Shown here one piece after another: positions 50,000 through 63,163 of a DNA stretch of 63,163 nucleotides (position 1 is its first letter; each line of letters opens with the position of its first letter). Location of the stretch: positions 1-63,163 of IMG/VR virus record IMGVR_UViG_3300037264_003470; one strand, 5' to 3'. Source of the DNA: a virus (Duplodnaviria > Caudoviricetes). The translations under genes and the position numbers were made by a program. The notes below the pieces were generated by a model that was given only the letters and a program-made list of their open reading frames with translations, searched no databases and was not told where the DNA came from.

Positions 50000-50027
50000 T
50001 TGACAATGGACATTTGCGGAGTATTAT
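50000..50027 (+). promoter_or_regulatory. sigma70-type promoter
   Basis: TTGACA-N16-TATTAT upstream of 50078. Confidence 0.55.
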
Positions 50028-50077
50028 AAGGGTAGACGTTTTGAACACTGCCATCAACAATTTCCAGAGACTAACTC

Positions 50078-52387: not shown

Positions 52388-53222
52388 GGAGTATAAAGAC
52401 CAAGCCAGACACTATGTAATGGAATACGCTCGGCATTCCCTGCATAGTGTCTGGCTCCCTGGCAGCGAAGCTATGTGCTTTGAACAAGCCGTCGATCTAG
52501 GCATCTGCACCAAACGCAGCCATGCCCACCTGATCGAACGTGATAAACCTACGTTTATAAAGTTGCAAGAAACAATCAAGAAAAAAAGACTCCATGAACG
52601 AGCTAATATCCATCTGCATAACATCAACCTGGAAGACTTCATCCCTCCAGAACCAATTGACTTCGCCTTTATTGACCTGTTGGGTACGTTTACACCGTCC
52701 GTCCTATTGTGGCTACAACAAATACTAGCTAAGAATGTTATACCTGACTGTCGCCTGTGCTTTACACACTTATATAAAAATAGAAATAACTATAACCTAG
52801 AAGAACTTATGGAACTATGTCAAACCAAATATAAAGATGTATATGATAGCTGTAAAGACCTGTGGCAGTATAACGATGAATGGATTGCATTGACAGCATT
52901 TGAACTTAAATGCTGCTTCAATGAATGGGATTTTGTGCTGAAAAGTCCATATCCCTATAGAGATAGTCATTGGGGTATGACCGTGTACCGCTGTGAAGAT
53001 TTCCAGCGAAAAGAAACTGGTCTGCCTGATATCCAAACACTAATCATGCAAACCAATTCTGGTAAGCGTGATATTCATTGGAATAGAGTATTGAAAGCAT
53101 ACAAAAATGCCTTCGATATCACCAAAGAGTATTGTGAGCAGCAGGATGTTCCTGACTTTAGTGAACGTTTCACAACCATGTTAAATGAGGTGCTACATGA
53201 AAGAGATTACAAGATTGATTGA
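52314..53222 (+). CDS. class I SAM-dependent methyltransferase-like protein
   Basis: WLPG, LIERD, IDFAFIDLLG; overlaps helicase end. Confidence 0.5.
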   Translation: MTQQNTRNKIKNGSKVITPLQWHDREYKDQARHYVMEYARHSLHSVWLPGSEAMCFEQAVDLGICTKRSHAHLIERDKPTFIKLQETIKKKRLHERANIHLHNINLEDFIPPEPIDFAFIDLLGTFTPSVLLWLQQILAKNVIPDCRLCFTHLYKNRNNYNLEELMELCQTKYKDVYDSCKDLWQYNDEWIALTAFELKCCFNEWDFVLKSPYPYRDSHWGMTVYRCEDFQRKETGLPDIQTLIMQTNSGKRDIHWNRVLKAYKNAFDITKEYCEQQDVPDFSERFTTMLNEVLHERDYKID

Positions 53223-53391
53223 CAAGCTCAAGAAGGCAAAAGGTGATTATGATAAGATGCGAGGCTTCCGCCGCGCTCTTACTGTATGGAGCCAAAAACG
53301 GGAACAAGAGACGGGTACACCCGCCTTCTACTTCATCCGTGCCTTCAAAATGAGAGTAACCAAAGAAGGTTTAAACGCTCTAGCCGTTTAA
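53197..53391 (+). CDS. small basic protein
   Basis: GAGGTG SD, 64 aa. Confidence 0.55.
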   Translation: MKEITRLIDKLKKAKGDYDKMRGFRRALTVWSQKREQETGTPAFYFIRAFKMRVTKEGLNALAV

Positions 53392-53393
53392 AC

Positions 53394-53423
53394 AAAAAAA
53401 AGGCGGGGCAACCCGCCTTTTTT
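53394..53423. terminator. bidirectional rho-independent terminator
   Basis: A8-GGCGGG-GCAA-CCCGCC-T6 between convergent genes. Confidence 0.9.
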
Positions 53424-54076
53424 CATTTCCAAATACTCGCTTCCAAATCTCTCCAGGTTCCACCACGCCTAACCAACGCCTGCTCAAGATTCTTTAATAA
53501 AGGATGAGCCACCCTTGGAGGTAATTGCCCAATCGCTTGAAATAAGATTGTAAAAGCTTCCTTGAACTTCATAAGATTGCCAGTAGTAATACCACTAGAA
53601 CCAAATAATGTATCCGCCACATTACGCGCAGAAGTCATCACTCCCTTCCATACCGCCGACCCAATATCCGCCAACTTACTGTAACCAGCAGTGTTCACAC
53701 TAGGAAACTCGCCACCACCCACTACCCCCATCGCCCGCCCCGCCTTGGGTTCCTTTGATTCATACCCAACACTTTCAACCGCCTTCACCGCCTGCCTTAT
53801 ATTGTTCAATATGGGTCCACGCCAACTTTCATTTTTGTTTATGTAGTCTAATATTGCCGCAGCAGCACCATAAGCACGCGATTTGCTCCCGCGAAATGCC
53901 TTCATCACCCCAATCGTCGCTGGAACTAAACCAGATGCAGCCGCTGGCGCTACACCAGCCGCAGCACCAAGCCCTTTGTAAATCCATGAATCAGGATTGT
54001 CCTTCATGGGTGTGTAATCCGTAACGTTAAAACTGGCTTCATCCCGCCTTACTACATACTCAGCAAAAGTTTGCAT
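53423..54076 (-). CDS. hypothetical protein, possible internal virion protein
   Basis: N-terminus MQTFAEYV..RDEA; Ala/Gly-rich hydrophobic stretch. Confidence 0.75.
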   Translation of the reverse strand: MQTFAEYVVRRDEASFNVTDYTPMKDNPDSWIYKGLGAAAGVAPAAASGLVPATIGVMKAFRGSKSRAYGAAAAILDYINKNESWRGPILNNIRQAVKAVESVGYESKEPKAGRAMGVVGGGEFPSVNTAGYSKLADIGSAVWKGVMTSARNVADTLFGSSGITTGNLMKFKEAFTILFQAIGQLPPRVAHPLLKNLEQALVRRGGTWRDLEASIWK

Positions 54077-54119
54077 ACCCTATCTATTGTCCCCAACGTC
54101 AAAATCTATTTTTATTAAT

Positions 54120-54671
54120 TTAACCACGCTTCATGCCAGAAAAAGTATTCTGGTCAATTATCTTAACTCTAATCGGTGATCCCAAAGCTAAAGCTGCATA
54201 TAACCTCGTCCTCCCACCAATTACAATAAGCCCATTAGAACCTTTTAATAACACGGGTGCCTCATAATTTCCACTCTGTATGCCCCTAATTAAACTAGAA
54301 ACATCATACCCGCGATTCCTCCCCTCCCCACTATCCCGCGACTGCATCAACTGAACAAACTTCATAGCAGCATCAGGCTGACCACTAATTTGCGCTATCT
54401 GCTGAGGTAATTGCTCCTGCCCCACCTTGTTTGCAAGATTCTTCAAAGTAATAATCGACTTGGCAGGTATCGTTGTCTCTGGTGCTGAATCAATAATCTT
54501 ACCCAACTGAATCGCCATCTCATTCTCTTCGTTTGACCAAACTGAACCTGGCGGCTTATGAGAAATACCTATTGATTTTAATAAAGCTTGTATCTCTGGC
54601 ACCCGTTGAGATATTAATTCCCCAGCCTCTTCGTAACCACTCTCAAATAACCATTCCCTAAAAATCCCCAT
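54120..54671 (-). CDS. ParB/Srx-like domain protein
   Basis: PVLL....VIGGRTRLYAALALG..IRVKII (variant of the DGxxR motif). Confidence 0.55.
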   Translation of the reverse strand: MGIFREWLFESGYEEAGELISQRVPEIQALLKSIGISHKPPGSVWSNEENEMAIQLGKIIDSAPETTIPAKSIITLKNLANKVGQEQLPQQIAQISGQPDAAMKFVQLMQSRDSGEGRNRGYDVSSLIRGIQSGNYEAPVLLKGSNGLIVIGGRTRLYAALALGSPIRVKIIDQNTFSGMKRG

Positions 54672-54701
54672 AAAACTATTTAACCACGCTACCTTAAATA
54701 T

Positions 54702-55133
54702 ATGAAAACCTATAACATATTAGTCCAATTCCCCAACCACCACTTCCAAGGTCCAGTCACCGTCCAAGATGGCTGGGAAATATCCAATAAACACGAAATC
54801 ATTACCACCTTTACCTTCGATGGCCTGACAGTCTATGAAGATGGCTCAAACATCGCACTCGAAGAAAGAGAATTACTCTCCATCTTCGCTGAATTCTTTG
54901 ACTTTGGTGCCAAATACTTTAAGAATGGTGAACTAAACGGCGATGATGTGGCCGCTAAATTGAGATTACAACTCGGAGAACTTTATCTAGGAAATCAACC
55001 TAAGTCTACCTACAGTTACCGCTTCACTGGCGTCTGGCCACACTCCGTTAACTTCGGGGAACTATGCTATAGTTCCGATCCCACTGTCCACCTCGAAGTA
55101 ACCTGGAAATATAAAGAAATGACTACCCTCTAA
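54702..55133 (+). CDS. tail tube (T4 gp19)-like protein
   Basis: YRFTGVWPHSVNFGELCYSS...LEVTWKY. Confidence 0.55.
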   Translation: MKTYNILVQFPNHHFQGPVTVQDGWEISNKHEIITTFTFDGLTVYEDGSNIALEERELLSIFAEFFDFGAKYFKNGELNGDDVAAKLRLQLGELYLGNQPKSTYSYRFTGVWPHSVNFGELCYSSDPTVHLEVTWKYKEMTTL

Positions 55134-55134
55134 T

Positions 55135-55551
55135 TTACCACTTTATCTTTAACCCCCATCGAGGTTCATACCACTCCCTGGCCGTTACATAATCCACATT
55201 CGCCGCTTCCATGTAATTATCACAATGAACACTTATAGGATCAATCTTGAACTTGTAAGCTTTATTCAATCTGCCCAACTGCGCCACCGCCATTTCCCAC
55301 GCTGGCTCCCTTGTGACACCATCCCCAAATCGAATCTCCGTCTCCCTCTTACCCTTATTAATCGCGTAAAAAATATCCTCCTCTATACGCTTAATAATAT
55401 CTTCTATATCCTTCTTTAGTTTAGCCTCTTCCGCCTTCATCTTCTTTTCCTCCGCTATTTTAACTCTGACCCGATTCTCTGCCGCTTCCTTGATGTTTCT
55501 TATATTAGCCTCATTAAGCATCTTAACCAATTGTTTTCTCTTGGGTAACAT
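55135..55551 (-). CDS. hypothetical protein
   Basis: 138 aa. Confidence 0.65.
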   Translation of the reverse strand: MLPKRKQLVKMLNEANIRNIKEAAENRVRVKIAEEKKMKAEEAKLKKDIEDIIKRIEEDIFYAINKGKRETEIRFGDGVTREPAWEMAVAQLGRLNKAYKFKIDPISVHCDNYMEAANVDYVTAREWYEPRWGLKIKW

Positions 55552-55918
55552 ATTCCATCACCTCATAGTGAAGTTTAAGCTCTAAAATACTTTCTTCATA
55601 TGATTGAATCACTTCTGCCGTTACACCCTTATAATTGTAACTGTCAGATTCCTTTAATTCGTAATGACCCAATCCCATGTTGTGTAACTCATGACCACAA
55701 TTTGGACACTTAGGCGGAACCTTAATATACCACTTAACACTCACCGTCCCCTTCGGGACGGGAAACGTGTGTAAAAAGAAATTCCTTATATCGCATTCAA
55801 CATCAAATATGATAACATGAAAAGTGTTTTCCTCTGTTGGTGATGCTGTTACCTTAACACTCGCCGTAACAAAACTGTACTCACCAAACTTACCTTCAAT
55901 AGTTTGTTTAGAATGCAT
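55523..55918 (-). CDS. hypothetical protein with CPNC motif
   Basis: 131 aa. Confidence 0.6.
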   Translation of the reverse strand: MHSKQTIEGKFGEYSFVTASVKVTASPTEENTFHVIIFDVECDIRNFFLHTFPVPKGTVSVKWYIKVPPKCPNCGHELHNMGLGHYELKESDSYNYKGVTAEVIQSYEESILELKLHYEVMEYVTQEKTIG

Positions 55919-56561
55919 TTTTATTCCATAATTCCTTAATTATACTCAAATCATACCTGTAATCATTCATCTTAAATAATGTCTTAGGCGCAGCTTTGAT
56001 GTAATCTAAAAACCGTTCTTCTTTAGCCATAAATTCTTCTGGAATATCATAACTGTGATGCGGTATCTCCAACGCCTTCTCCCATAAGAAATTAAAAAGC
56101 AACTCTTCAGGCTGACTCACCCTGTAATAAAATAAATTGGGCGGTATACTCCTGCCACTATACTTCTTTATAGGCTCCTGCGGATCATTCAATTGACAAT
56201 TATGACACAATTTTACCAAATTGATTTTCTTAAATTTCTTGAAACTGGTCTTTCTGTACCTTAAATCCATATGATCGGCTTTGCCAAGTATAGAACCAGG
56301 ATGACCAGAAATACCAACAAACTCAGCAGTGCTAACAACATCACTACTCTCGTCATCATAACGATTAACATTCCTGTCTATCTTTACATCCGTTGACGCC
56401 AGCGTTCTACCAATATACCACCAGAAATCAATCTTCTGATAATAGTTTTCGTAAAACGTCGCCTCCCTGTCAAATATACAAATAGGGAACTTGAGCGGCA
56501 AAGATAAAACATGCGCCTGCTCAGTCGTGAAGCCGTAAGCAAGTGATTTAATGTCGTACAT
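55908..56561 (-). CDS. hypothetical protein
   Basis: 217 aa. Confidence 0.65.
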   Translation of the reverse strand: MYDIKSLAYGFTTEQAHVLSLPLKFPICIFDREATFYENYYQKIDFWWYIGRTLASTDVKIDRNVNRYDDESSDVVSTAEFVGISGHPGSILGKADHMDLRYRKTSFKKFKKINLVKLCHNCQLNDPQEPIKKYSGRSIPPNLFYYRVSQPEELLFNFLWEKALEIPHHSYDIPEEFMAKEERFLDYIKAAPKTLFKMNDYRYDLSIIKELWNKNAF

Positions 56562-56623
56562 CAGTTGAACCCTGTGAAATTGGTCAAAAACTCATGATAA
56601 CGGGTTTTCAGGAGAAAAACAAG

Positions 56624-57115
56624 TTACCATATTTCTATTTCTTTGGATAGTGATGGTGTCGGCTGATCTACTGGTCTACTAATTACTGCTGGTCTTGGCT
56701 CATCTATATTTCTAACACGCGGTACTTTCGCCGCGTTTGGATTGTAACGACGATTTGGTATAAAAACCATATTATTACGGTCGATAACGCCGACGATTTG
56801 AGTATTAGGGACAAAGTTTTGTGGGGCGTTGGCGCGGTGTTTACGATGATGGTCATACGGCATGTCAATCAAGAGAACATGATCGCCAAAATGAGAGCGA
56901 TTAAATGGCCCCGTATTCCCTGATTGAACCAGATTAGTAATATCATTATTATTAGAGAAAGAATCAGTAGTCGAATCCAAAGCTTTATATAAGAACGGTT
57001 GCCCTTGTAAAAACCTTTTAGCTATATTTTCAGATGTGAAGTGTGTTAAACGAATCATATCTGGTGGAATAGACGGCAATTGAAGTTGAGATTCTAACCA
57101 TAATCTAAAGTTCAT
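56624..57115 (-). CDS. hypothetical protein, possible internal virion protein
   Basis: N-terminus MNFRLWLES. Confidence 0.7.
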   Translation of the reverse strand: MNFRLWLESQLQLPSIPPDMIRLTHFTSENIAKRFLQGQPFLYKALDSTTDSFSNNNDITNLVQSGNTGPFNRSHFGDHVLLIDMPYDHHRKHRANAPQNFVPNTQIVGVIDRNNMVFIPNRRYNPNAAKVPRVRNIDEPRPAVISRPVDQPTPSLSKEIEIW

Positions 57116-57116
57116 A

Positions 57117-57347
57117 TTATTGCCCCATCATTCCGTGTTTTTGAAATAACGCTATTACTTGCCTATTCATGGTTTGTGCTACATTCATTAACTCCCCTTT
57201 TAATTGCGGATTTTGAATTTGACTTGCCGCACGCATAAGCCCACTCTGAGCCTGCCCAAATTGCTGAATATCTGGACCTATCTGACCAGGCTGTTGCTGG
57301 CCTAATACTTCATCTTTTCTTGTTATAAACTTATTAAACTTTTCCAT
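57117..57347 (-). CDS. Gln-rich small protein
   Basis: N-terminus MEKFNKFI; TATATA 4 nt upstream. Confidence 0.65.
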   Translation of the reverse strand: MEKFNKFITRKDEVLGQQQPGQIGPDIQQFGQAQSGLMRAASQIQNPQLKGELMNVAQTMNRQVIALFQKHGMMGQ

Positions 57348-57621
57348 TAAATATATAATGTCTTGGTGTATAATAAAAAATTGGCGGCGGCGATTTTTGG
57401 AAAATGGAAAAATTAGTTTTTTTAGATATGTGTGTGGAAATTGAAAAATCCCTGGCGTGGAATTTTGAAATTGATTCTTTAAAAGAACTAACTGGTATTG
57501 CGTCCACGGTAGGCTCCCCTATGTTACTTTTTTAAACAGAAAATGAAATTAATTTCTCCTTTCTTAATTATGTTAGTACAACCTCAATAGCAATTCAATG
57601 GGCATGGGCGATGCCCCCACG

Positions 57622-57747
57622 TTAGCACGTTGCCATACGCTTGCACCAGCGTAGGCTGCGCCACTTGCCATACCACGCAAGGCGTGCTTGCGTCTTGAAG
57701 CGGCGTGCCCGCTTGCTCCCGTCCACGATGCAGCTTGACTTCTTCAT
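57622..57747 (-). CDS. array cassette: 41-aa basic peptide
   Basis: MKKSSCIVDG...RMATC*, GGAGG SD, fills one repeat slot. Confidence 0.6.
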   Translation of the reverse strand: MKKSSCIVDGSKRARRFKTQARLAWYGKWRSLRWCKRMATC

Positions 57748-57804
57748 AGGGGTATCCTCCTACCCCATTCAGTACAACCGCAATTAGAGGTTCATTAGTA
57801 AAAA

Positions 57805-57828
57805 GGGCAGGGTTGCGGTCCCCTGCCC
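57805..57828 (-). terminator. type-A array hairpin (representative copy)
   Basis: GGGCAGGG-ttgcggtc-CCCTGCCC with adjacent A-run (U-tract on the minus strand); related copies near 58141, 60117, 61326, 61640, 62515, 62796. Confidence 0.75.
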
Positions 57829-57843
57829 TTACCCCTAACGTTG

Positions 57844-58065
57844 TTACGCGGCGTCCAGCAACTCCATGCCGAATTCGACGGCTTCCTTCGCTTCGCGGAG
57901 GCCGATGCCCGTCTGCGTGCGGAGGTGCTTGATCGCCATGATCTTCTTTTCGTGGAGGTCCACGCCGAAGTCGCGGAGCATCTTGAGCATCTTGAGGGCC
58001 GCGCGGGTGTCGCGGATCATTTCGTCGCGGGCCGACAGGGGCGGGTTGTAACCAGTGCTGTTCAT
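57844..58065 (-). CDS. array cassette: ribosomal protein L7/L12 C-terminal-domain-like protein
   Basis: KKIMAIKHLRTQTGIGLREAKEAVE matches the L12 CTD KI.AIK..R..TGLGL.EAK..VE motif. Confidence 0.8.
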   Translation of the reverse strand: MNSTGYNPPLSARDEMIRDTRAALKMLKMLRDFGVDLHEKKIMAIKHLRTQTGIGLREAKEAVEFGMELLDAA

Positions 58066-58172
58066 CGTTCGTCTCCAGAAAGGGGTGATCGTCGCTACAC
58101 TGTAATTAGTACAACCTCAATTAGAGGTTCATTAGAGAAAGGGCAGGGTTGCGGTCCCCTGCCCGTCTCGCC

Positions 58173-58619
58173 TTAGTCGAGTAAGGCGGCGACTTCGCAG
58201 CAGACAAAACCGCAGTCGATTGCTACTGCCATCGGCAGCGCCAGTAGCAACGGGCTTCCCGTCAGTGCAGCGATGGACAAGGAACAGTGCCAAACCGATA
58301 GCGCCAGCAGGCCAACGCCAACGCAAGCCGTGAGGATTGCTGCCCTGCGCTGGCCGCGCTTGTAAAGCAGACTGGCCACCTTGCCCAACACGAGGATGAT
58401 GACGGGGACGATGAGGCCCATGCCCCAACCCGCCCAACCGATTTCCGCGTGCTGCGCGTTGGCGTAGCCGTTCAGCAGCGCCGACAAGATCGCCATGATG
58501 ACAACGCCAGCGTTGGCGTAAGCCGTCAAGTGATCGCCCTTCACAGCGACGGGCTTGGCCTTGCGAGCGGGCTTGCGGGCGGGCTTGGCGTCGGTCAGCT
58601 TCAGTGCAGTGGCGTTCAT
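58173..58619 (-). CDS. array cassette: 4-TM membrane protein
   Basis: four hydrophobic segments, basic N-terminus; GGAG SD. Confidence 0.8.
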   Translation of the reverse strand: MNATALKLTDAKPARKPARKAKPVAVKGDHLTAYANAGVVIMAILSALLNGYANAQHAEIGWAGWGMGLIVPVIILVLGKVASLLYKRGQRRAAILTACVGVGLLALSVWHCSLSIAALTGSPLLLALPMAVAIDCGFVCCEVAALLD

Positions 58620-58687
58620 CGCAGTTCTCCGTAAGGGGTGACTCGTCCTACACCTGATTTAGTACAACCTCAATTAGAGGTTAATTA

Positions 58688-58703
58688 GGGAGTGGGCGCT
58701 CCC
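58688..58703 (-). terminator. type-B array hairpin (representative copy)
   Basis: GGGAG-tgggcg-CTCCC; related copies near 59017, 60463, 60720, 60964, 62015, 63146. Confidence 0.55.
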
Positions 58704-58709
58704 TTCCCC

Positions 58710-58949
58710 TTAGTATTCGTCCACCTCTTGCCAGTCGTCGCCACGGTAGTCGGGGCCGTCGTCCTCATCGGCGTCATCGGGCCGACACGTCGCGCAGATC
58801 GCCTTGAACGTTTCCCACGTCACGCGCTCGCCGCTCTCGCCAATGCGGAGGTAAGTGGGGCGCGGCCCACTGTAGTTGCGCATCTCCTCCAGCGTGAACA
58901 CCGCACGACTGAACTCGCCAGCGCCGTTGTCAACGTACAGTGCGAACAT
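58710..58949 (-). CDS. array cassette: hypothetical, acidic tail
   Basis: fills repeat slot, GGAG SD. Confidence 0.75.
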   Translation of the reverse strand: MFALYVDNGAGEFSRAVFTLEEMRNYSGPRPTYLRIGESGERVTWETFKAICATCRPDDADEDDGPDYRGDDWQEVDEY

Positions 58950-59038
58950 GTCAGGCTCCGTAAGGGGTGATCGTCGTTACAACCCAATTAGTACAACCTC
59001 AATTAGAGGCTGATTAGGGAGTGGGCGCTCCCTTCCCC

Positions 59039-59404
59039 TTAACTCCAGTGTAGTCCTCCCGTCAGCGCCACGTCCACGCCGATCCCGTTCGCCTGCAACA
59101 AGCGGGCCGCGCGGCTGAGGTCGTCCTCATGGCCAGCGCAGTCTTCCCCGATCCCGTCCACGGGACGGAACTTCCCCCAGCCGAACGTGAGGAAGCCGTC
59201 CAAGTCCCCGATGGGGCCGTCGCTATCGCGCTCCTTCCACTGGCGATAGCCGTCCTCATACTCATTCCAGGCAGTCGCCGCAGCGCGTTCGGCATCGTGC
59301 CGCTTGGCCATTTCGGTCATGCGGTCGTGCGTGCCGCTGGGGACGCGAGCCAGGACTTCCAAGGCGGCGCGGTCGGTCGTGTTCGGATAGAGGCGGGTTC
59401 CCAT
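59039..59404 (-). CDS. array cassette: hypothetical
   Basis: 121 aa, fills repeat slot, GGAG SD. Confidence 0.8.
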   Translation of the reverse strand: MGTRLYPNTTDRAALEVLARVPSGTHDRMTEMAKRHDAERAAATAWNEYEDGYRQWKERDSDGPIGDLDGFLTFGWGKFRPVDGIGEDCAGHEDDLSRAARLLQANGIGVDVALTGGLHWS

Positions 59405-59696
59405 CGTCAGACTCCAGTAAGGGGTGATCGTCGCTACAACCCAATTAGTACAACCTTGATTAGAGGTTCATTAGGGAGGAACGGCTGGACGGCGCAAAGT
59501 CGGTCGAGGTTCGAGGTTAAAATGGCCCGTAATCGCGCCAGGATCGCTTGAGACGAGCGCAAACGGGTCGAGGCTATGTCGGGTCGGTTTTAGGTTTGGA
59601 GGGCTTAAAAGCGATTTAATCGCATTCCAGGCTGGCGCTAGTTTGTACACTATAAATTGGCATTAAATGAGGTTGTACTGATATTAAATTGGTAAT

Positions 59697-59721
59697 AAAA
59701 AACCCACCCTTGCGGGTGGGC
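59697..59721 (-). terminator. rho-independent terminator
   Basis: minus strand CCCACCC-GCAA-GGGTGGG followed by T6. Confidence 0.85.
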
Positions 59722-59729
59722 TGTGTCGG

Positions 59730-60044
59730 TCAAACCTCGACCGTTTCCTGCCCGTTGGCGATACGGGCAAGCTGGCCAGCGTACTTGTGCAGCATACGGC
59801 GGGCTGCGCCAAGCTGATTGACAGACAACGGGCAAGGATAGCGCGGGTCGGGTCGGAGGCACTTCTGCGCCAAGTCGGAACCGAACTTGGCATCCCTGTA
59901 ATTGAAGCCGCGCCCGTTGTCGTGCTTGGTGGTTTCGTCGCTTTTCTCGTCCTCGGTCTGGCGCTCGTACAGGACGACAAGAGCGCGGTAGACGGCCTTG
60001 GGGTTGTTGGCCAGCAGCACGCGGATGGATTCGGTAGTGTGCAT
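59730..60044 (-). CDS. array cassette: phage-type hypothetical protein
   Basis: NGRGFN.RDA...LS..Q...AR..L.KYAGQL; GGAG SD. Confidence 0.8.
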   Translation of the reverse strand: MHTTESIRVLLANNPKAVYRALVVLYERQTEDEKSDETTKHDNGRGFNYRDAKFGSDLAQKCLRPDPRYPCPLSVNQLGAARRMLHKYAGQLARIANGQETVEV

Positions 60045-60149
60045 CGCGGTACTCCGTAAGGGGTGATCTTCACTACACCCCGATTAGTACAACCGCAATG
60101 ATCCTGTAATGGGAAAGGGCAGGGTTGCGGTCCCCTGCCTTCCCTGGAG

Positions 60150-60395
60150 TTACTCGTCGTACTTGCCGTGATACTGGCGGTCGCTCACCTTGCGGTCGAG
60201 GTTGCGACCGATGCCGCGCGATTCGGGCCGCTTGGCAGGCGGGTCGCAATCGGCGCAGGCGCTCTTGTGTTCGTTGTAGGCGCTCCAGAAAGCGTGCTTG
60301 CAAGAGCAGCAAAGCCGCTGCACCAGGATAGCGCCGCCCGTCGTCTTGCGGGACGCGATGACCTCACCGACGCCGACTTGGACCAGAGCGTTCAT
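60150..60395 (-). CDS. array cassette: zinc-ribbon protein
   Basis: start moved to MNALVQV (AAGGAG SD); CCSC..CADC. Confidence 0.75.
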   Translation of the reverse strand: MNALVQVGVGEVIASRKTTGGAILVQRLCCSCKHAFWSAYNEHKSACADCDPPAKRPESRGIGRNLDRKVSDRQYHGKYDE

Positions 60396-60486
60396 GCGAT
60401 GCTCCTTGAAAGGGGTGATGTTCGCTACACCAGGATTAGTACAACCGCAATGATCCTGTAATGGGAGTGGGCGCACTCCCTCGGTG

Positions 60487-60672
60487 TTACTCCGCTTTCC
60501 AGCGGCGGGCCTTGCGTGCGGCCTTGATGCGGCGGCGCTCCCTGCGCTTGTCAGCAGCAGCGGCCATACCGATCTGATCCTCGATGCGGAACAGGTTGCC
60601 GCGTTCGGGCGCAGGGCCGAGCTTGATGGTGAAGCCCTTGTCATTGCGGCGGATTGCGGTTGTCTGGTGCAT
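60487..60672 (-). CDS. array cassette: basic small protein
   Basis: AAGGAG SD, Arg-rich C-terminus. Confidence 0.7.
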   Translation of the reverse strand: MHQTTAIRRNDKGFTIKLGPAPERGNLFRIEDQIGMAAAADKRRERRRIKAARKARRWKAE

Positions 60673-60741
60673 GATTGTTCTCCTTACTCTATTTAGTACA
60701 ACCGCAATGATCTTGTAATGGGAGTGGGCGCTCCCTTGCTG

Positions 60742-60915
60742 TTAGCAGACCTGATACTCATGTCCGTTCACAGTCAAGACGCCGCCGAAGAACGTCCACG
60801 TCGGTTCGCTGGTCAGCGCAGCTTCATGCGCCGCAAGCAATTGCTCCATGTCCTCCTCGATCTGTTGCTTGCTCAGACTCTGGCCGCTACGGTCGGTTGC
60901 GTTCAGAATGGTCAT
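60742..60915 (-). CDS. array cassette: 57-aa hypothetical
   Basis: MTILNATDRS...HEYQVC*, AAGGAGG SD. Confidence 0.7.
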   Translation of the reverse strand: MTILNATDRSGQSLSKQQIEEDMEQLLAAHEAALTSEPTWTFFGGVLTVNGHEYQVC

Positions 60916-60985
60916 GCTTCCCTCCTTGCTCCAATCAGTACAACCTCGATTAGAGGATGATTAGGGAGTGGGCGCTCCCTTCCCC

Positions 60986-61261
60986 TTAGTCCTGGGTGCG
61001 GCAGTAGCACTTGTAGGGCTTGTTATCGGGGCCGTAGACGACGAGGTTGAAAGACGAGCCACTGCCGTCTTCTCTCTGAATGCTGGACAGGATGCAAGGG
61101 ATGCCATTGATGCTGATGCCGCCCTTGCATCCGCTGGCCGTGAGCGCGTTGAACAGGGTGAACTTGGTCATCGGCGTGGCACAACGCATCAAGCGCTGTT
61201 CCATCGTCAAGTCGAGCGTGGCAGTGGCAGAGCGCCGAGTCGAGAGAGTCCCTTGCAGCAT
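60986..61261 (-). CDS. array cassette: hypothetical
   Basis: 91 aa, GGAGG SD. Confidence 0.75.
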   Translation of the reverse strand: MLQGTLSTRRSATATLDLTMEQRLMRCATPMTKFTLFNALTASGCKGGISINGIPCILSSIQREDGSGSSFNLVVYGPDNKPYKCYCRTQD

Positions 61262-61359
61262 GACAGCCTCCAGTTAGGGTTATCGTTACACTTCATTTAG
61301 TACAACCTTAATTAGAGGATAAAAAGGCAGGGTTTGCGTTCCCCTGCCCACCCCTAACG

Positions 61360-61563
61360 TTATGCTACCATGTCTTTGAGTTGTTCGCTCTGGCTCTTGG
61401 CGTGGTTGAACGGGACCAGATAGAACCCGTGCGGGATGACGTGGCCAAGCCAGAACAATTCGCCGCCGCGCCAGACCAGCATCAGCTTCCCCCGCTTGGC
61501 ATGGGAATAGGTGAAGTCGTCAGCAAGGACGCGGGCCAACTGGCGAGAGATGTAGGTTCGCAT
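61360..61563 (-). CDS. array cassette: hypothetical
   Basis: start moved to MRTYISRQ (GGAG SD). Confidence 0.75.
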   Translation of the reverse strand: MRTYISRQLARVLADDFTYSHAKRGKLMLVWRGGELFWLGHVIPHGFYLVPFNHAKSQSEQLKDMVA

Positions 61564-61666
61564 CGCAGTTCTCCGTAAGGGGTGATGTTGGCTACACACA
61601 AATTAGTACAACCTTAATTACAGGATGATAACAAAAAAAGGCAGGGGTTTCCCCCTGCCCTATTGT

Positions 61667-61945
61667 TTACGCGGCCTTGACCGCGAGGAGCGTGTCGAGC
61701 GGCGACTGCCCCTCGAAGTCGGCCAGGTAGGAAATGGGGTTCATCTTCCGCGCCTCCTGCGCCTTGTTCTTGCTCAAGCCCGTCTTGGCGACGACCTCCT
61801 TGACGGACAAGAGCCGACGCATCAGCGGGCCGATGACGGGCTTGCCCTTGTCGGACGGCACCGTGGGATTGTCCACGATGCGGGACACCTTCAGACCGTT
61901 CTCGATGCGGGACAGCAGGACCACCGTGACGTTGAGCAGCTTCAT
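61667..61945 (-). CDS. array cassette: hypothetical, possible HTH-like segment
   Basis: LSVKEVVAKTGLSKN; GGAG SD. Confidence 0.75.
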   Translation of the reverse strand: MKLLNVTVVLLSRIENGLKVSRIVDNPTVPSDKGKPVIGPLMRRLLSVKEVVAKTGLSKNKAQEARKMNPISYLADFEGQSPLDTLLAVKAA

Positions 61946-62036
61946 CGCGTTACTCCAGAAAGGGGTGATGTTCGTTACAACCCAATTAGTACAACCTTGA
62001 TTAAGGGATCATTAGGGAGTGGGCGCTCCCTGTCCC

Positions 62037-62225
62037 TTATTCCCAATACGTCCCTCCCAGCGCTCCGCGCACCTTGACCAGACCAGCGGAGCGGAGCGCA
62101 TCTTCGCGTGCCTTGCGTGACGCATTCCGCTTGTCCCGCTTGCGCTTGCCTTCGTCGCAATCGCGGCAGAGGTTGTCGCCGTCAGCCGTGGCAATCTCGC
62201 AGCCGCATTTCTCGCAAACCTTCAT
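62037..62225 (-). CDS. array cassette: zinc-ribbon protein
   Basis: CEKC..CRDC; GGAGG SD. Confidence 0.75.
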   Translation of the reverse strand: MKVCEKCGCEIATADGDNLCRDCDEGKRKRDKRNASRKAREDALRSAGLVKVRGALGGTYWE

Positions 62226-62294
62226 GGTCGCCTCCAGTGTTAGGGTTATACCACAATTAGTACAACCTTAATTAGAGGAAGATTGGGCGCTCCC

Positions 62295-62468
62295 TTAGCG
62301 TGGTTCAACTTTGGTATAGTGCCAAAAGTGGCGGATTGTGCCGTCCCGTCTCGCATCGTCCAGGCGCTTTACCTCTTCGTCGGCCCGTTCTTTGGTCCAA
62401 ACGACCTTGACAACGGTGATAGCACCGTCTTGAAAATGATGCCGAACAACCGCGAATGCGTCATCCAT
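62295..62468 (-). CDS. array cassette: 57-aa hypothetical
   Basis: MDDAFAVV...TKVEPR*, AGGGGA SD. Confidence 0.65.
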   Translation of the reverse strand: MDDAFAVVRHHFQDGAITVVKVVWTKERADEEVKRLDDARRDGTIRHFWHYTKVEPR

Positions 62469-62543
62469 TGTTTCCCCTTTGTAGGTCTAGTACAACCTTA
62501 ATTAGAGGAAGATTGGCAGGGTTTGCGGTCCCCTGCCCACCCC

Positions 62544-62735
62544 TTACTTGACGTACTCTTTGCTTTCGCCCGTCTTGATGCTGACGACCTCGTACTTGCG
62601 CTGAATGAGGTCTTTCAGGGTTTGCGGGTGAACGCCCGCCATGCTGCGGATGACGACGGTGAATTCCTGCACCGCATGGTCGAGGGTGACGGTCTTTCCA
62701 TCGGTCAGCTTCTCGCCGTAGAGGTGAATCATCAT
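62544..62735 (-). CDS. array cassette: hypothetical
   Basis: 63 aa, GGAG SD. Confidence 0.75.
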   Translation of the reverse strand: MMIHLYGEKLTDGKTVTLDHAVQEFTVVIRSMAGVHPQTLKDLIQRKYEVVSIKTGESKEYVK

Positions 62736-62824
62736 GGCACTTCTCCAGTGTTAGGGTTATACCTCAATTAGTACAACCTTAATTAGAGGAAGATTGGCAG
62801 GGTTTGCGGTCCCCTGCCTTCCCC

Positions 62825-63085
62825 TTAGTGCGGCACCGTTGCGAGCAGCTTTTGCAACTTCTCTTTCTGTTTCCAGTGTTCCGCGTTCCAGATGTTCTCA
62901 TTCAGAGCGCGGCGGATGCGGTCGCGTATCTCTCGCGTCTTGTAAGCGTAAGAGCATTCCGCCCACATCTCTTCCGCGAAGTCGAGCAGCGTCAGCGCCT
63001 CCTCGTACTTCTCCGCGTTGCAGAGGTCCAGAATGCGGTCCTTCTGGCGAACAAGCAGATTGTCCAGAGCGTATTCAGCGATCAT
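62825..63085 (-). CDS. array cassette: hypothetical helical protein
   Basis: 86 aa, GGAGG SD. Confidence 0.75.
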   Translation of the reverse strand: MIAEYALDNLLVRQKDRILDLCNAEKYEEALTLLDFAEEMWAECSYAYKTREIRDRIRRALNENIWNAEHWKQKEKLQKLLATVPH

Positions 63086-63163
63086 GGTCGCCTCCAGGGT
63101 TAGGGTTATACACCAATTAGTACAACCTTAATTAGAGGATAATTAGGGAGTGGGCGCTCCCTT

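What the first reader, a model, noticed from the sequence alone, without database searches (positions are those of the whole stretch)
57622..63085. Cassette borders fall at the start and stop codons; 15 of 16 genes end in TAA
Seen: 15 of 16 ORFs stop with TAA despite GC-rich coding. The TAA is often fused to the repeat (+strand CCCTTA or CCCCTTA ending in the stops at 58710, 59039, 60986, 62037, 62295, 62544, 62825). The only TGA gene (59730) has a different terminator. SD-to-ATG spacers are also shared between unrelated genes: CGCAGTTCTCC follows CAT at both 58619 and 61563, and GGTCGCCTCC at both 62225 and 63085. Inference: the variable unit is the bare coding sequence and the repeat supplies the stop and RBS. 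This resembles integron cassettes, whose origin is unresolved, and suggests precise ORF capture or de novo gene birth inside a fixed frame.
Basis: partly seen in the sequence, partly recalled or inferred. Interest (0 to 1): 0.75.

Follow-up and report, generated by a model that had tools for sequence, protein, structure and literature searches.

The report
Phage promoter-terminator gene cassette array
Sixteen small genes in a large uncultured phage each sit in their own copy of a repeated hairpin, promoter-like and ribosome-site unit, so the repeats end at the start and stop codons; T4-type phages are known to do this, but here the promoter is unfamiliar and the genes are oddly GC-rich.

Summary
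On the minus strand of 57622-63085 lie 16 small ORFs: 15 end in TAA, 7 as TAAGGG(G), and both shared SD-to-ATG spacers are present.

The integron-like reading does not hold. Each intergenic unit is hairpin, then an 18-nt promoter-like core (AATTGNGGTTGTACTAAT), then a short GGAG leader. A 159.5-kb relative (G001) has 93 copies of the core, all on one strand. A 373-kb relative (G002) has the same layout with a different core, 110 forward and 3 reverse, plus three sigma-factor-like ORFs.

- 13 of 16 genes have G001 orthologs under purifying selection (pooled dN/dS 0.25).
- Their stops differ: TAA 9, TAG 3, TGA 1.
- TAA is 35 of 54 and 26 of 55 in the relatives' arrays, against 36 of 57 in the window's backbone.
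- Gene gains, losses and moves mostly carry promoter and hairpin, and break at varied points.
- No tyrosine recombinase was found.

The closest known system is the PeSL cassettes of T4-type phages. The new features are the non-sigma-70 core and a GC3 gradient from about 0.45 to 0.9 along the array.

The parts
57558..57621 (-). Last module of the array: hairpin (57600-57616), promoter-like core (57575-57583) and a leader that runs into the AT-rich genes downstream
   Evidence: The junction is conserved in G001 (90% identity). G002 has the same layout and a closely similar leader, by my reading.
57622..57747 (-). Gene 1, 41 aa, stop TAA. An orphan whose coding status is uncertain (GC2 higher than GC1).
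   Evidence: Absent from G001, which has an empty slot at this place. No homolog found.
57748..57843 (-). Intergenic module upstream of gene 1: type A hairpin 57806-57827, core 57771-57779, leader whose SD lies in a small hairpin loop
57844..58065 (-). Gene 2, 73 aa, TAA. Weak match to the ribosomal L7/L12 C-terminal domain.
   Evidence: The G001 ortholog (86% aa) sits at a different place in the array.
58066..58172 (-). Intergenic module: type A hairpin 58142-58163, core 58108-58116, leader with GGAG
58173..58619 (-). Gene 3, 148 aa, TAA. Hydrophobic, membrane-protein-like by eye.
   Evidence: The G001 ortholog (81% aa) ends in TAG.
58620..58709 (-). Intergenic module: TAAGGGGAA, type B hairpin 58688-58703, core 58661-58669, leader
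58710..58949 (-). Gene 4, 79 aa, TAA. A chimera: the N-terminal 56 aa match one G001 gene and the acidic C-terminal tail matches another.
58950..59038 (-). Intergenic module: type B hairpin 59017-59032, core 58990-58998, leader
59039..59404 (-). Gene 5, 121 aa, TAA
   Evidence: The homologs in G001 and G002 end in TAG.
59405..59729 (-). Long spacer: core 59447-59455 and leader of gene 5, a conserved non-coding stretch of about 250 nt, and the terminator of gene 6 (59701-59722)
   Evidence: The stretch is conserved in G001 and present twice in G002.
59671..59679 (+). The single opposite-strand copy of the promoter-like core, pointing at the 3' end of gene 6
   Evidence: The copy in G002 carries G002's own core variant.
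59730..60044 (-). Gene 6, 104 aa, the only TGA stop. Member of PHROG 21015.
   Evidence: The G002 homolog ends in TAA followed by GGGGAAGG and a hairpin.
60045..60149 (-). Intergenic module: type A hairpin 60118-60139, core 60086-60094, leader
60150..60395 (-). Gene 7, 81 aa, TAA, Cys-rich
60396..60486 (-). Intergenic module: type B-like hairpin 60463-60480, core 60438-60446, leader
60487..60672 (-). Gene 8, 61 aa, TAA
60673..60741 (-). Short intergenic module: type B hairpin 60720-60735, core 60695-60703, short leader with AAGGAG
60742..60915 (-). Gene 9, 57 aa, TAA. The whole unit is missing at this place in G001.
   Evidence: Only a 45% paralog exists elsewhere in G001.
60916..60985 (-). 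Intergenic module: type B hairpin 60964-60979, core 60937-60945, short leader
60986..61261 (-). Gene 10, 91 aa, TAA
   Evidence: Its first 13 residues lie outside the tblastn match to G001 (q14-91), and the N-terminal region aligns poorly.
61262..61359 (-). Intergenic module: type A hairpin 61326-61348, core 61299-61307, second leader class (AACCCTAAC...GGAGG)
61360..61563 (-). Gene 11, 67 aa, TAA, followed in frame by CGT TAG
61564..61666 (-). Intergenic module: hairpin with T-run 61640-61659, core 61605-61613, leader identical to gene 3's over the last 22 nt
61667..61945 (-). Gene 12, 92 aa, TAA, GC3 0.96
61946..62036 (-). Intergenic module: type B hairpin 62015-62030, core 61988-61996, leader
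62037..62225 (-). Gene 13, 62 aa, TAA, zinc-ribbon-like Cys pairs
62226..62294 (-). Intergenic module: truncated B hairpin arm 62285-62294, core 62259-62267, second leader class
62295..62468 (-). Gene 14, 57 aa, TAA, an orphan. G001 has an unrelated 85-aa gene in this place.
62469..62543 (-). Intergenic module: type A hairpin 62515-62537, core 62489-62497, short leader
62544..62735 (-). Gene 15, 63 aa, TAA
62736..62824 (-). Intergenic module: type A hairpin 62796-62818, core 62770-62778, second leader class
62825..63085 (-). Gene 16, 86 aa, TAA
63086..63163 (-). Intergenic module cut by the end of the record: type B hairpin 63146-63161, core 63119-63127, second leader class. The array goes on beyond the record.
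   Evidence: G001 continues with about 40 more units.

Best explanation
The segment is the downstream end of a very long, one-directional block of phage transcription units in a huge, uncultured, tRNA-rich phage lineage.

Anatomy. Each small gene sits in its own expression slot. In the direction of transcription the slot reads: the previous gene's stop codon; a G-rich flank and stem-loop (terminator, attenuator or 3'-end stabiliser); an 18-nt phage-specific promoter (AATTGNGGTTGTACTAAT); a leader of about 25-35 nt with a (CT)GGAG ribosome site; then ATG. The promoter is most likely read by host RNA polymerase carrying a phage sigma factor, with the transcript starting about 18 nt after the first G of the core.

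Why the borders are sharp. These elements fill the 69-107-nt gaps completely, so likeness between slots necessarily stops at the start and stop codons. In tightly packed units the stop codon overlaps the first conserved letters of the next module (TA[AG]GGG, or the TAA of TAATTG).

How it evolves. The coding sequences are unrelated to one another, inherited vertically and kept by purifying selection. The slots are kept alike by function and by recombination among their many copies. That same recombination deletes, duplicates, moves and swaps whole units or parts of them, which is the modular shuffling described for PeSLs of T4-type phages.

Stop codons. The near-exclusive TAA is a local excess on top of a phage-wide preference for TAA and a shortage of TGA in these arrays. 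It is not a fixed property of the repeat.

Shown: anatomy, copy numbers and strand bias, orthology and selection, junctions of gene differences, change of the core between relatives. Inferred: promoter and terminator activity, the sigma factor, and recombination as the mechanism.
For: Anatomy.
- The window has 17 minus-strand cores and 1 plus-strand core against 0.38 expected. The modules were read out.
- 119 of 124 cores examined in the three genomes have a hairpin of 5 bp or more within 70 nt upstream.
- Type A hairpins fold at -18 to -23 kcal/mol.

Promoter reading.
- GGTTGTACTRA occurs 93 times forward and 0 reverse across 11.8-95.2 kb of G001.
- G002 has the same layout with the core AGCTGTACCTAGT (TTAGCTGTAC 110 forward, 3 reverse).
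- An ATG lies exactly 18 nt after the core start in 16 of 96 G001 cores and 21 of 77 G002 cores, mostly without an SD and opening ORFs of 50 aa or more. This fits leaderless transcripts and fixes the likely start site.
- No sigma-70-consensus promoter was found at any core.
- G002 has three Sigma70_r2 matches over Pfam's cut-off.

Real genes.
- 13 of 16 have G001 orthologs at 63-92% aa identity with dN/dS 0.08-0.55. Pooled dN/dS is 0.25 over the 14 pairs.
- Gene 5 has 13 homologs, all 117-123 aa.
- Gene 6 has homologs in 11 isolated-phage records.

Shuffling.
- Unit-sized indels are bounded by hairpin copies (gene 9; the gene 2 homolog in G001).
- An extra G001 unit is bounded by leaders identical for 24 nt up to the ATG.
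- Gene 14 is replaced. Gene 4 is a chimera.
- Orthologous genes carry different hairpin classes (at least genes 4, 13, 15, 16). One G001 hairpin is a hybrid of the two classes.
- The six window genes found in G002 stand in a different order.

Stop codons.
- G001 orthologs: TAA 9, TAG 3, TGA 1 of 13.
- Gene 6 ends in TGA in the window and G001 but in TAA in G002.
- TAA is 35 of 54 in the G001 array and 26 of 55 in the G002 array, against 36 of 57 and 40 of 66 in the backbones.
- TGA is 14 of 125 in arrays against 30 of 123 in backbones (p 0.008).
- In five G001 units the stop lies 2-5 nt before the next core; in the after-stop letters printed there it reads as the TAA or TAG at the head of the core's own upstream motif.

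Prior description. PMC2839356 (sections 13 and 16 read) describes PeSLs as running from the upstream stop codon to the SD and start codon of the next gene.
Against: - No transcript ends were seen. The RNA-library runs are held as contigs and cannot show starts, ends or strand.
- No sigma factor or RNA polymerase gene was found in the window or G001, both of which are fragments. The PF00940 search rang in no control genome, so it says nothing.
- Type B hairpins are weak (-11.2 kcal/mol, no better than 38 of 200 shuffles) and lack a T-run. They may not terminate.
- Recombination between repeats does not explain the gene 1 indel. It begins at the ATG and ends 5 nt after the stop, with no flanking repeat that I could see.
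- It also does not explain how a leader comes to be joined to an unrelated CDS exactly at the ATG in the first place.
- The GC-rich coding sequence inside an AT-rich phage is not explained by this model.
- Only two relatives were found, so the set of events is small.
Confidence: 0.8

Rival explanations
1. Gene-capture platform. The slots are pre-made expression sites into which foreign, GC-rich coding sequences are joined at the ATG and stop by an unknown precise mechanism, with new genes added at the end next to the late genes.
For: - Gene 1 plus 5 nt is present in the window, whereas G001 has an empty slot with the leader followed directly by a hairpin. Genes 1 and 14 have no homolog anywhere I searched.
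- Exact leader or post-stop runs shared by unrelated genes end within 2 nt of the CDS.
- GC3 rises towards the late-gene junction in G001 (rho 0.72, n 54) and in G002 (rho 0.71, n 74), as expected if the newest genes are the least ameliorated.
- Gene 6 homologs occur in phages of GC-rich Proteobacteria.
Against: - Most events between the window and G001 carry promoter and hairpin along.
- Breakpoints vary in position.
- No recombinase was found.
- The GC-rich genes nearest the junction are conserved between the window and G001, and two of them (genes 5 and 6) also in G002, so they are not recent arrivals.
- Polarised third-position changes give GC-to-AT 21 against AT-to-GC 11 of 47. This is weak and biased by parsimony.
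Confidence: 0.12
2. Integron-like system: site-specific recombination at the hairpins by an integrase inserts promoterless ORF cassettes.
For: It is an array of single small genes separated by hairpin-bearing repeats. This is a resemblance only.
Against: - No PF00589 match in the window, G001 or the 98%-complete G002, while the control rang in 14 of 14 genomes.
- Every unit has its own promoter-like core.
- The hairpins are perfect stems of 5-7 bp with loops of 4-9 nt. They are not long imperfect palindromes.
- Junctions of gene differences are not at one fixed point.
Confidence: 0.02
3. De novo gene birth: the ORFs arise inside fixed regulatory frames from non-coding GC-rich filler.
For: - Most cassette proteins match no family: 15 of 16 have no Pfam match and 13 of 16 no PHROG match.
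- Gene 1 has odd codon-position composition, with GC2 at 0.61 above GC1 at 0.44, and no relatives.
Against: - 13 of 16 have orthologs with dN/dS well below 1 and an excess of third-position differences.
- 6 of 16 have homologs in the more distant G002.
- Genes 5 and 6 have full-length homologs elsewhere.
Confidence: 0.03
4. Assembly chimera: a GC-rich stretch from another organism was joined to an AT-rich phage contig at a repeat.
For: - GC jumps from about 0.40 to about 0.60 at 57.6 kb.
- The record ends inside a repeat.
- Array contigs have about twice the depth of backbone contigs in DNA run X1.
Against: - The same junction is present in G001 (90% identity across it), and I read the same arrangement in G002.
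- The same core motif occurs on both sides of the composition change in G001 and G002.
- The last core of the array drives AT-rich genes.
Confidence: 0.01

Closest known systems
PeSLs (promoter-early stem-loops) in the hyperplastic regions of T4-type phages (Arbiol et al. 2010, PMC2839356; Comeau et al. 2014, PMC4122927)
   Same: - A composite repeat of stem-loop plus promoter runs from the stop codon of one small gene to the SD and start codon of the next.
- There are dozens of copies in front of small genes of unknown function.
- Gene differences between close relatives are bounded by the repeats, and recombination between copies is proposed as the cause.
   Basis: PMC2839356 sections 13 and 16 read; PMC4122927 outline and abstract only.
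   Different: - The promoter part is not a sigma-70 consensus. It is an 18-nt phage-specific core that differs between related phages.
- The hairpin always precedes the promoter.
- Roughly 95-115 cores lie on one strand across 80-130 kb.
- The genes are far GC-richer than the phage backbone, with a GC3 gradient.
- Neither mini-circles nor promoter or terminator activity could be tested here.
[quoted passage not shown]
   Same: A cluster of small early genes with their own strong promoters and ribosome sites at a genome end. Basis: passages of PMC6873191; the primary paper, Stewart et al. 1998, was seen only as a reference.
   Different: - The SPO1 genes are grouped in operons read from host-type early promoters (recalled).
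- Whether the present array lies in a terminal repeat is open. The only hint is twofold depth in one DNA run.
- The functions of the window's genes are unknown.
Integron cassette arrays
   Same: A row of single small genes separated by hairpin-bearing repeats.
   Different: There is no integrase. Each gene has its own promoter-like core. The hairpins are short and perfect. The junctions vary in position.
Phage-specific promoter sets that change together with the phage's own transcription factor (T7, T3 and SP6 RNA polymerase promoters; phage sigma factors). Recalled, not tested.
   Same: A compact conserved motif in many copies on one strand, differing between related phages while its spacing to the gene start is kept.
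   Different: No single-subunit polymerase was detected, though that search was uninformative. The position of the motif fits a -10-type element, and G002 has sigma-like ORFs. The cognate factor is not identified.

Membership tests
PeSL-type composite regulatory cassettes | Repeated intergenic motif that combines a promoter with a stem-loop and spans from the upstream stop codon to the SD and start codon of the next gene | tested here: met
   15 complete modules in the window. 119 of 124 cores in three genomes have a hairpin within 70 nt upstream. The definition is taken from PMC2839356, figure 2 legend.
PeSL-type composite regulatory cassettes | The promoter part matches the host sigma-70 early-promoter consensus (-35 and -10 boxes) | tested here: not met
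   The consensus scan finds no sigma-70-type site at any core. It found 1 site elsewhere, against 2.5 expected. The core differs between relatives.
PeSL-type composite regulatory cassettes | Concentrated in variable regions, in front of small genes without known homologs | tested here: met
   15 of 16 proteins have no Pfam match and 13 of 16 no PHROG match. Cores are densest where genes are smallest.
PeSL-type composite regulatory cassettes | Insertions, deletions and replacements between close relatives are bounded by the repeats | tested here: met
   Gene 9 unit, gene 2 move, gene 14 replacement, extra G001 unit. The gene order differs in G002.
PeSL-type composite regulatory cassettes | Promoter and terminator activity shown; circular excision products | not testable with these tools
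   The only RNA runs are held as contigs. Joints in contigs had sides of 30 nt or less inside repeats and were set aside.
PeSL-type composite regulatory cassettes | Host phage is a T4-type myovirus | not tested
   The backbone has baseplate-wedge, tape-measure and prohead-protease matches, but 39 of 49 large ORFs match no PHROG. No T4 core-gene test was run.
Integron | Integron-type tyrosine recombinase next to the array | tested here: not met
   PF00589 gives 0 matches in the window, G001 and G002, while the control rang in 14 of 14 genomes. The window and G001 are fragments; G002 is rated 98% complete.
Integron | attC sites: long imperfect palindromes with conserved outer core sites at the 3' end of each cassette | tested here: inconclusive
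   The recurring hairpins are perfect stems of 5-7 bp with loops of 4-9 nt. No attC model was available to run. The attC description is recalled.
Integron | Cassettes mostly lack promoters and are read from one common promoter | tested here: not met
   All 16 genes are preceded by their own copy of the promoter-like core, and a 17th copy follows gene 1. Promoter activity itself is inferred.
Integron | Recombination junction at one fixed point of the repeat | tested here: not met
   Junctions fall in hairpins, in leaders, at the ATG and inside coding sequence.
SPO1-type host-takeover module | Lies in the terminal redundancy of the genome | tested here: inconclusive
   Array contigs have depth 110-142 against 58-62 for the backbone in DNA run X1. 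GC bias or a co-occurring strain would give the same result. No termini were determined.
SPO1-type host-takeover module | Products shut off host functions early in infection | not testable with these tools
   No function could be assigned. Only gene 2 (weak L7/L12 C-terminal domain match) and gene 6 (PHROG 21015, function unknown) match families at E below 0.001; gene 13 has two marginal PHROG matches at E 0.005-0.009.

The most novel reading that the evidence does not exclude
The array is a polar gene-acquisition and expression platform of huge phages. Ready-made slots (hairpin, phage promoter, leader) take up foreign GC-rich coding sequences, joined at or near the ATG and the stop. New genes enter at the end next to the late genes. 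The smooth GC3 decline away from that end (0.9 down to 0.45 over 40-80 kb, seen in two genomes) then records their age as they drift towards the AT-rich, tRNA-supported codon usage of the phage. The empty slot in G001, at the place where the window has orphan gene 1, would be such a site caught unoccupied.
Probability: 0.12. Interest if true: 0.75.

Novelty: new variant of a known kind. Interest (0 to 1): 0.4.

Why it matters
The sharp cassette borders and the TAA bias looked like a trace of an unknown ORF-capture mechanism. They turn out to be what a fully packed terminator-promoter-leader module produces, a design described for T4-type phages in 2010. Earlier entries of this scan report it in other phages (unchecked AI notes).

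Three things are worth keeping.
- A candidate promoter with a predicted start site. It has about 95-115 copies per genome and a different core in a related phage, and the near-complete relative has three sigma-like genes. This is a directly testable promoter-factor pair for an uncultured huge phage.
- A clean three-genome example of regulatory modules and coding sequences evolving as separate layers.
- An unexplained composition pattern. The small genes are GC-rich (GC3 up to 0.96) in a phage whose backbone has GC3 of about 0.31-0.42, and in the relative G002 that backbone carries 58 tRNA genes. GC3 also changes smoothly along the array. If this reflects early genes tuned to a GC-rich host and late genes tuned to the phage's own tRNAs, it bears on why large phages carry tRNA sets.

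Tried and rejected
- Long-range pairing between the stop flank (TAAGGGG) and the leader (CCCCTTA). The best stems in matched modules average 5.19 nt, against 5.22 for mismatched partners. 117 of 200 control draws reached the observed value. Rejected; the complementarity comes from shared G-rich and C-rich consensus.
- Search for relatives by DNA. blastn of the array against 50,697 phage records gave no match. Two core patterns scanned in IMG/VR found multi-copy matches only in G001 among the loci listed; other contigs had single matches. One search reported 116 stretches and listed 80.
- A backbone protein found only G001, a contig identical to G001 over the locus fetched, and a 1.4-kb fragment.
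- tblastn of genes 2, 3, 5 and 12 against isolated phages gave no match.
- Gene 6 homologs in four other phages are full-length (99-112 aa). Their stops are TAG, TGA, TGA and TAA, their GC equals the local GC, and their flanks are unrelated. At 32-46% identity this cannot test where the borders lie.
- Rfam: four matches at E 0.07-0.88, none near its gathering score.
- T7-type RNA polymerase (PF00940): no match, but the control rang nowhere, so the result is uninformative. RNA polymerase beta (PF00562): none in G002.
- Stop-codon reassignment. Reading TAG through raises open-frame cover no more than reading TGA or TAA through. No sign of it.
- Polarising substitutions with G002 as outgroup. Of 47 polarised third-position changes, GC-to-AT 21, AT-to-GC 11, within-class 15. 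Too few and biased.
- Read laying. RNA-library contigs touch both the array and the late region at low depth, and cannot show transcription units. Joints between array positions had sides of 20-30 nt in repeats and were disregarded.
- Literature search for the core motif. 1,056 papers hold one of three strings. By title and abstract, 14 of the 15 listed concern no phage; one is on thermophilic phage GVE2 (its title concerns host MreB), and I opened none.
- Earlier notes of this scan held nothing for this genome.

Full report
**What the window is.** The record is the window itself: one 63,163-bp virus contig. Bases 1 to about 57,500 have GC 0.34-0.47. They carry large genes with baseplate-wedge, tape-measure, prohead-protease, tRNA-nucleotidyltransferase and methyltransferase matches. 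Only 10 of 49 large ORFs match any PHROG. From 57.6 kb to the end, GC is 0.55-0.60. The record ends inside a repeat.

**Checking the observation.**
- On the minus strand lie 16 ORFs of 41-148 aa. Fifteen end in TAA. The one at 59730-60044 ends in TGA and is followed by a hairpin plus T-run terminator.
- The nine-letter core AGTACAACC occurs 18 times against 0.38 expected, only within 57575-63127.
- Coding GC is 0.53-0.66 and GC3 is 0.56-0.96.

**Anatomy of the repeat.** Read on the coding (minus) strand, each 69-107-nt gap (14 of 15 complete gaps) has the same order of parts.
- First the stop codon, often followed by a G-rich run.
- Then a stem-loop. Type A is GGCAGGG, a loop, then CCCTGCC; it folds at -18 to -23 kcal/mol and several copies have a T-run. 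Type B is GGGAG-CGCCCA-CTCCC; it folds at -11 kcal/mol and has no T-run.
- Then a conserved core, AATTGNGGTTGTACTAAT.
- Then a leader of one of two main classes, ending in (CT)GGAG and a 5-8-nt spacer, then ATG.
- A sigma-70 consensus scan finds nothing at the cores. Rfam finds nothing near its gathering scores.

**Relatives.**
- The core pattern found a 159,507-bp IMG/VR contig, G001. The window is syntenic to it at 76-91% nucleotide identity, ignoring the 61-75% hits inside a repetitive gene.
- G001 has GGTTGTACTRA 93 times forward and 0 reverse, from 11.8 to 95.2 kb. Copies are sparse at first and then come about every 350 nt. The window's array corresponds to the last 6 kb of that block.
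- Gene 5 has 13 homologs in the large protein collection, all 117-123 aa. An alignment of them led to a 373,404-bp record rated 98% complete, G002.
- G002 has the same architecture and, by my reading, the same junction to AT-rich genes. Its core is different: AGCTGTACCTAGT, with TTAGCTGTAC 110 times forward and 3 reverse.
- In both relatives an ATG lies exactly 18 nt after the core start far more often than chance: 16 of 96 cores in G001 and 21 of 77 in G002. These mostly lack an SD and open ORFs of 50 aa or more. This is what a promoter with a fixed start site and leaderless messages would give.
- G002 has three Sigma70_r2 matches above Pfam's cut-off, no RNA polymerase beta match, and 58 tRNA genes.
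- I therefore read the core as a phage-specific, probably phage-sigma-dependent promoter. This is an inference; no transcript ends could be seen.

**Are the ORFs genes?**
- 13 of 16 have orthologs in G001 at 63-92% aa identity. Differences are mostly at third positions and dN/dS is 0.08-0.55. Pooled dN/dS is 0.25 over the 14 pairs, which include the gene 9 paralog.
- 6 of 16 have homologs in the 52 kb of G002 that I searched.
- Gene 6 belongs to PHROG 21015. It has full-length homologs in 11 isolated-phage records, from Xanthomonas, Stenotrophomonas, Pseudomonas, Stutzerimonas, Rhizobium and Rhodobacter phages.
- Genes 1 and 14 have no relative anywhere I searched.

**Where do differences between genomes begin and end?**
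- Gene 9. The missing piece in G001 is promoter, leader, CDS and hairpin, bounded by two copies of the type B hairpin.
- Gene 2. Its G001 ortholog sits between the orthologs of genes 7 and 6, as a unit bounded by type A hairpins. In the window, gene 2 takes the place of an unrelated 37-aa ORF. Likeness is lost just after ATGAAC and regained at the hairpin.
- Gene 14. It is replaced by an unrelated 85-aa gene together with the hairpin, core context and leader.
- G001 has an extra Cys-rich gene upstream of gene 5, flanked by leaders identical for 24 nt up to the ATG. Unequal crossing-over between such leaders removes a gene exactly at the ATG.
- Gene 4 of the window joins the N-terminal 56 aa of one G001 gene to the acidic tail of that extra gene.
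- Orthologous genes carry different modules. Gene 16 has another leader class and other hairpin classes on both sides, with high identity starting at the ATG. Gene 15 has a different 5' leader half but the same last 14 nt. Gene 10 differs through the leader and across its N-terminal region: the tblastn match begins at residue 14 and that region aligns poorly.
- One G001 hairpin has a type B stem around a type A loop.
- Gene 1. The window has 131 nt (the CDS plus 5 nt) where G001 has the leader followed at once by the next hairpin. This is the one event that looks like a bare-CDS difference. I found no flanking repeat or source for it.

Overall, the junctions vary in position and mostly lie inside repeats. 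This points to homologous or short-homology recombination among the modules, not to a site-specific reaction. No tyrosine recombinase is present in any of the three records.

**Why the borders look exact.** When unrelated cassettes share an exact run up to the ATG or directly after the stop, the match never enters the CDS by more than 2 nt.
- Runs of 10 nt or more up to the ATG: 2 of 120 pairs in the window, 7 of 630 in G001, up to 51 nt long.
- Runs of 20 nt or more after the stop: 3 of 120 and 9 of 630, up to 81 nt long.

This follows from the packing. The module occupies the whole gap, so the only sequence shared between units ends where the unique CDS begins. In five G001 units the stop lies 2-5 nt before the next core. 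In the letters printed after those stops it reads as part of the core's own upstream motif (TAATTG or TAGTTG). The PeSL paper describes the same span, from the stop codon of the upstream gene to the SD and start codon of the next (PMC2839356 figure 2 legend).

**Stop codons.**

| Gene set | TAA | TAG | TGA | n |
|---|---|---|---|---|
| Window array | 15 | 0 | 1 | 16 |
| Window backbone (heuristic ORFs of 80 aa or more) | 36 | 7 | 14 | 57 |
| G001 late region | 40 | 10 | 16 | 66 |
| G001 array (first gene after each core) | 35 | 14 | 5 | 54 |
| G002 array | 26 | 21 | 8 | 55 |

- Window array against window backbone gives Fisher p 0.015.
- Orthologs change their stop. Genes 3, 4 and 5 have TAG in G001. 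Gene 6 has TGA in the window and G001 but TAA followed by GGGGAAGG in G002.
- What is shared by the three arrays is a shortage of TGA: 14 of 125 against 30 of 123 in backbones, p 0.008. Also shared is the context TA[AG]GGG. In the G001 83-95 kb stretch, 17 of 33 stops are followed by GGG or AGGG.
- So the near-exclusive TAA is a local feature of this record. The stop can travel with the downstream module, but it is not fixed by it.

**Comparison with known systems.**
- The closest match is the PeSL system of T4-type phages: the same span, the same association with small unknown genes, and the same repeat-bounded gene differences.
- It fails one defining feature, the sigma-70-type promoter. I therefore file it as working like PeSLs, a variant rather than a member.
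- The SPO1 host-takeover module is a functional analogue.
- Integron membership fails on integrase, on promoterless cassettes and on fixed junctions.
- Earlier entries of this scan describe PeSL-like arrays with unfamiliar promoters in other huge phages. They are unchecked notes on other genomes and add no evidence here.

**What remains unexplained.**
- The composition. In G001, GC3 rises from about 0.46 (12-40 kb) to 0.8-0.9 at 90-95 kb, then drops to 0.36 in the late genes (Spearman 0.72, p 9e-10, n 54).
- G002 repeats this against a uniform backbone of GC3 0.31-0.42 (Spearman 0.71, p 1e-12, n 74).
- Possible causes: early genes tuned to a GC-rich host while the backbone relies on the phage's tRNAs; imports from a GC-rich gene pool that slowly ameliorate; or recombination-linked GC bias. 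My polarised-substitution test was too weak to choose between them.
- On prior work I saw only search listings and the starts of abstracts. These concern early against late codon usage in phages (PMC5683454) and GC3 landscapes along phage genomes (PMC2266997). I did not read them, so I cannot say whether such a gradient is in print.

**Verdict.** The integron-like or de novo interpretation is not supported, apart from the single gene 1 case. The structure is a new variant of a known kind. Interest is moderate, and rests mainly on the testable promoter and the composition gradient.

Noticed in passing
G001 12-95 kb (L012-L015, L001-L011) and G002 281-325 kb (L153, L154, L142); window 57622-63085: GC3 of the genes behind the promoter-like cores rises smoothly along the direction of transcription. 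It goes from about 0.45 to 0.8-0.9 and then falls to about 0.35 at the junction with the late genes. Spearman is 0.72 in G001 (n 54) and 0.71 in G002 (n 74). In the window, the genes nearest the junction are the GC-richest.
   Followed up: partly
window 59456-59700; G001 92928-93226; L142 4624-4840 and 6953-7180: A conserved non-coding stretch of about 250 nt interrupts the array. It holds the only opposite-strand copy of the promoter-like core (in G002, that genome's own core variant), pointing into the terminator of the preceding gene. It also holds a small hairpin with a T-run (AATGCGATTAAATCGCTTTT). It may encode small RNAs.
   Followed up: partly
window 57801-63143 against 50000-57830: In the one DNA run that holds the record (possibly its source), contigs of the array have k-mer depth 110-142 against 58-62 for the backbone. 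The change falls at about 57.8 kb. A long terminal repeat, GC bias or a co-occurring strain could each explain it.
   Followed up: no
G001 37-80 kb; G002 281-300 kb: Many units have the ATG exactly 18 nt after the start of the core and no Shine-Dalgarno sequence (16 of 96 and 21 of 77 cores). This suggests leaderless messages. None of the window's 17 units is of this class.
   Followed up: partly
window hairpins 57600-57616, 58688-58703 and others; G001 and G002 arrays: Hairpins with different stems (GGGAG/CTCCC, CAGGGT/ACCCTG, GGGCAT/ATGCCC, GGGGT/ACCCC) share the loop CGCCC(A). The loop is conserved while the stems vary in a paired way, which hints that the loop is recognised by something.
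   Followed up: partly
window 57844-58065: Gene 2 (73 aa) matches the C-terminal domain of ribosomal protein L7/L12 just above Pfam's cut-off (27.4 against 25.9 bits, residues 38-64). It may be a small translation-factor-binding mimic.
   Followed up: no
G002 (whole record, L155-L171): The 373-kb relative carries 58 tRNA genes, mostly at 27-92 kb, including one with anticodon CUA, and three sigma-factor-like ORFs (about 16.9, 96.4 and 157.8 kb). Reading TAG through did not open frames more than reading the other stops through.
   Followed up: partly
window 58710-58949; G001 93278-93493 and 94054-94281: Gene 4 of the window is a chimera of two G001 genes, joined in an acidic, repeat-like stretch. 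Recombination therefore also reshuffles coding parts.
   Followed up: yes
window 61360-61366 and 57835-57846: In genes 11 and 2 the TAA is followed in frame by a second stop (TAG) that lies in the conserved TTAGGGG flank of the hairpin, giving tandem stops.
   Followed up: no
G001 77186-77258 (L006 3557-3629): A tRNA-Glu(UUC) gene sits inside the G001 array. The window itself has no tRNA gene.
   Followed up: no
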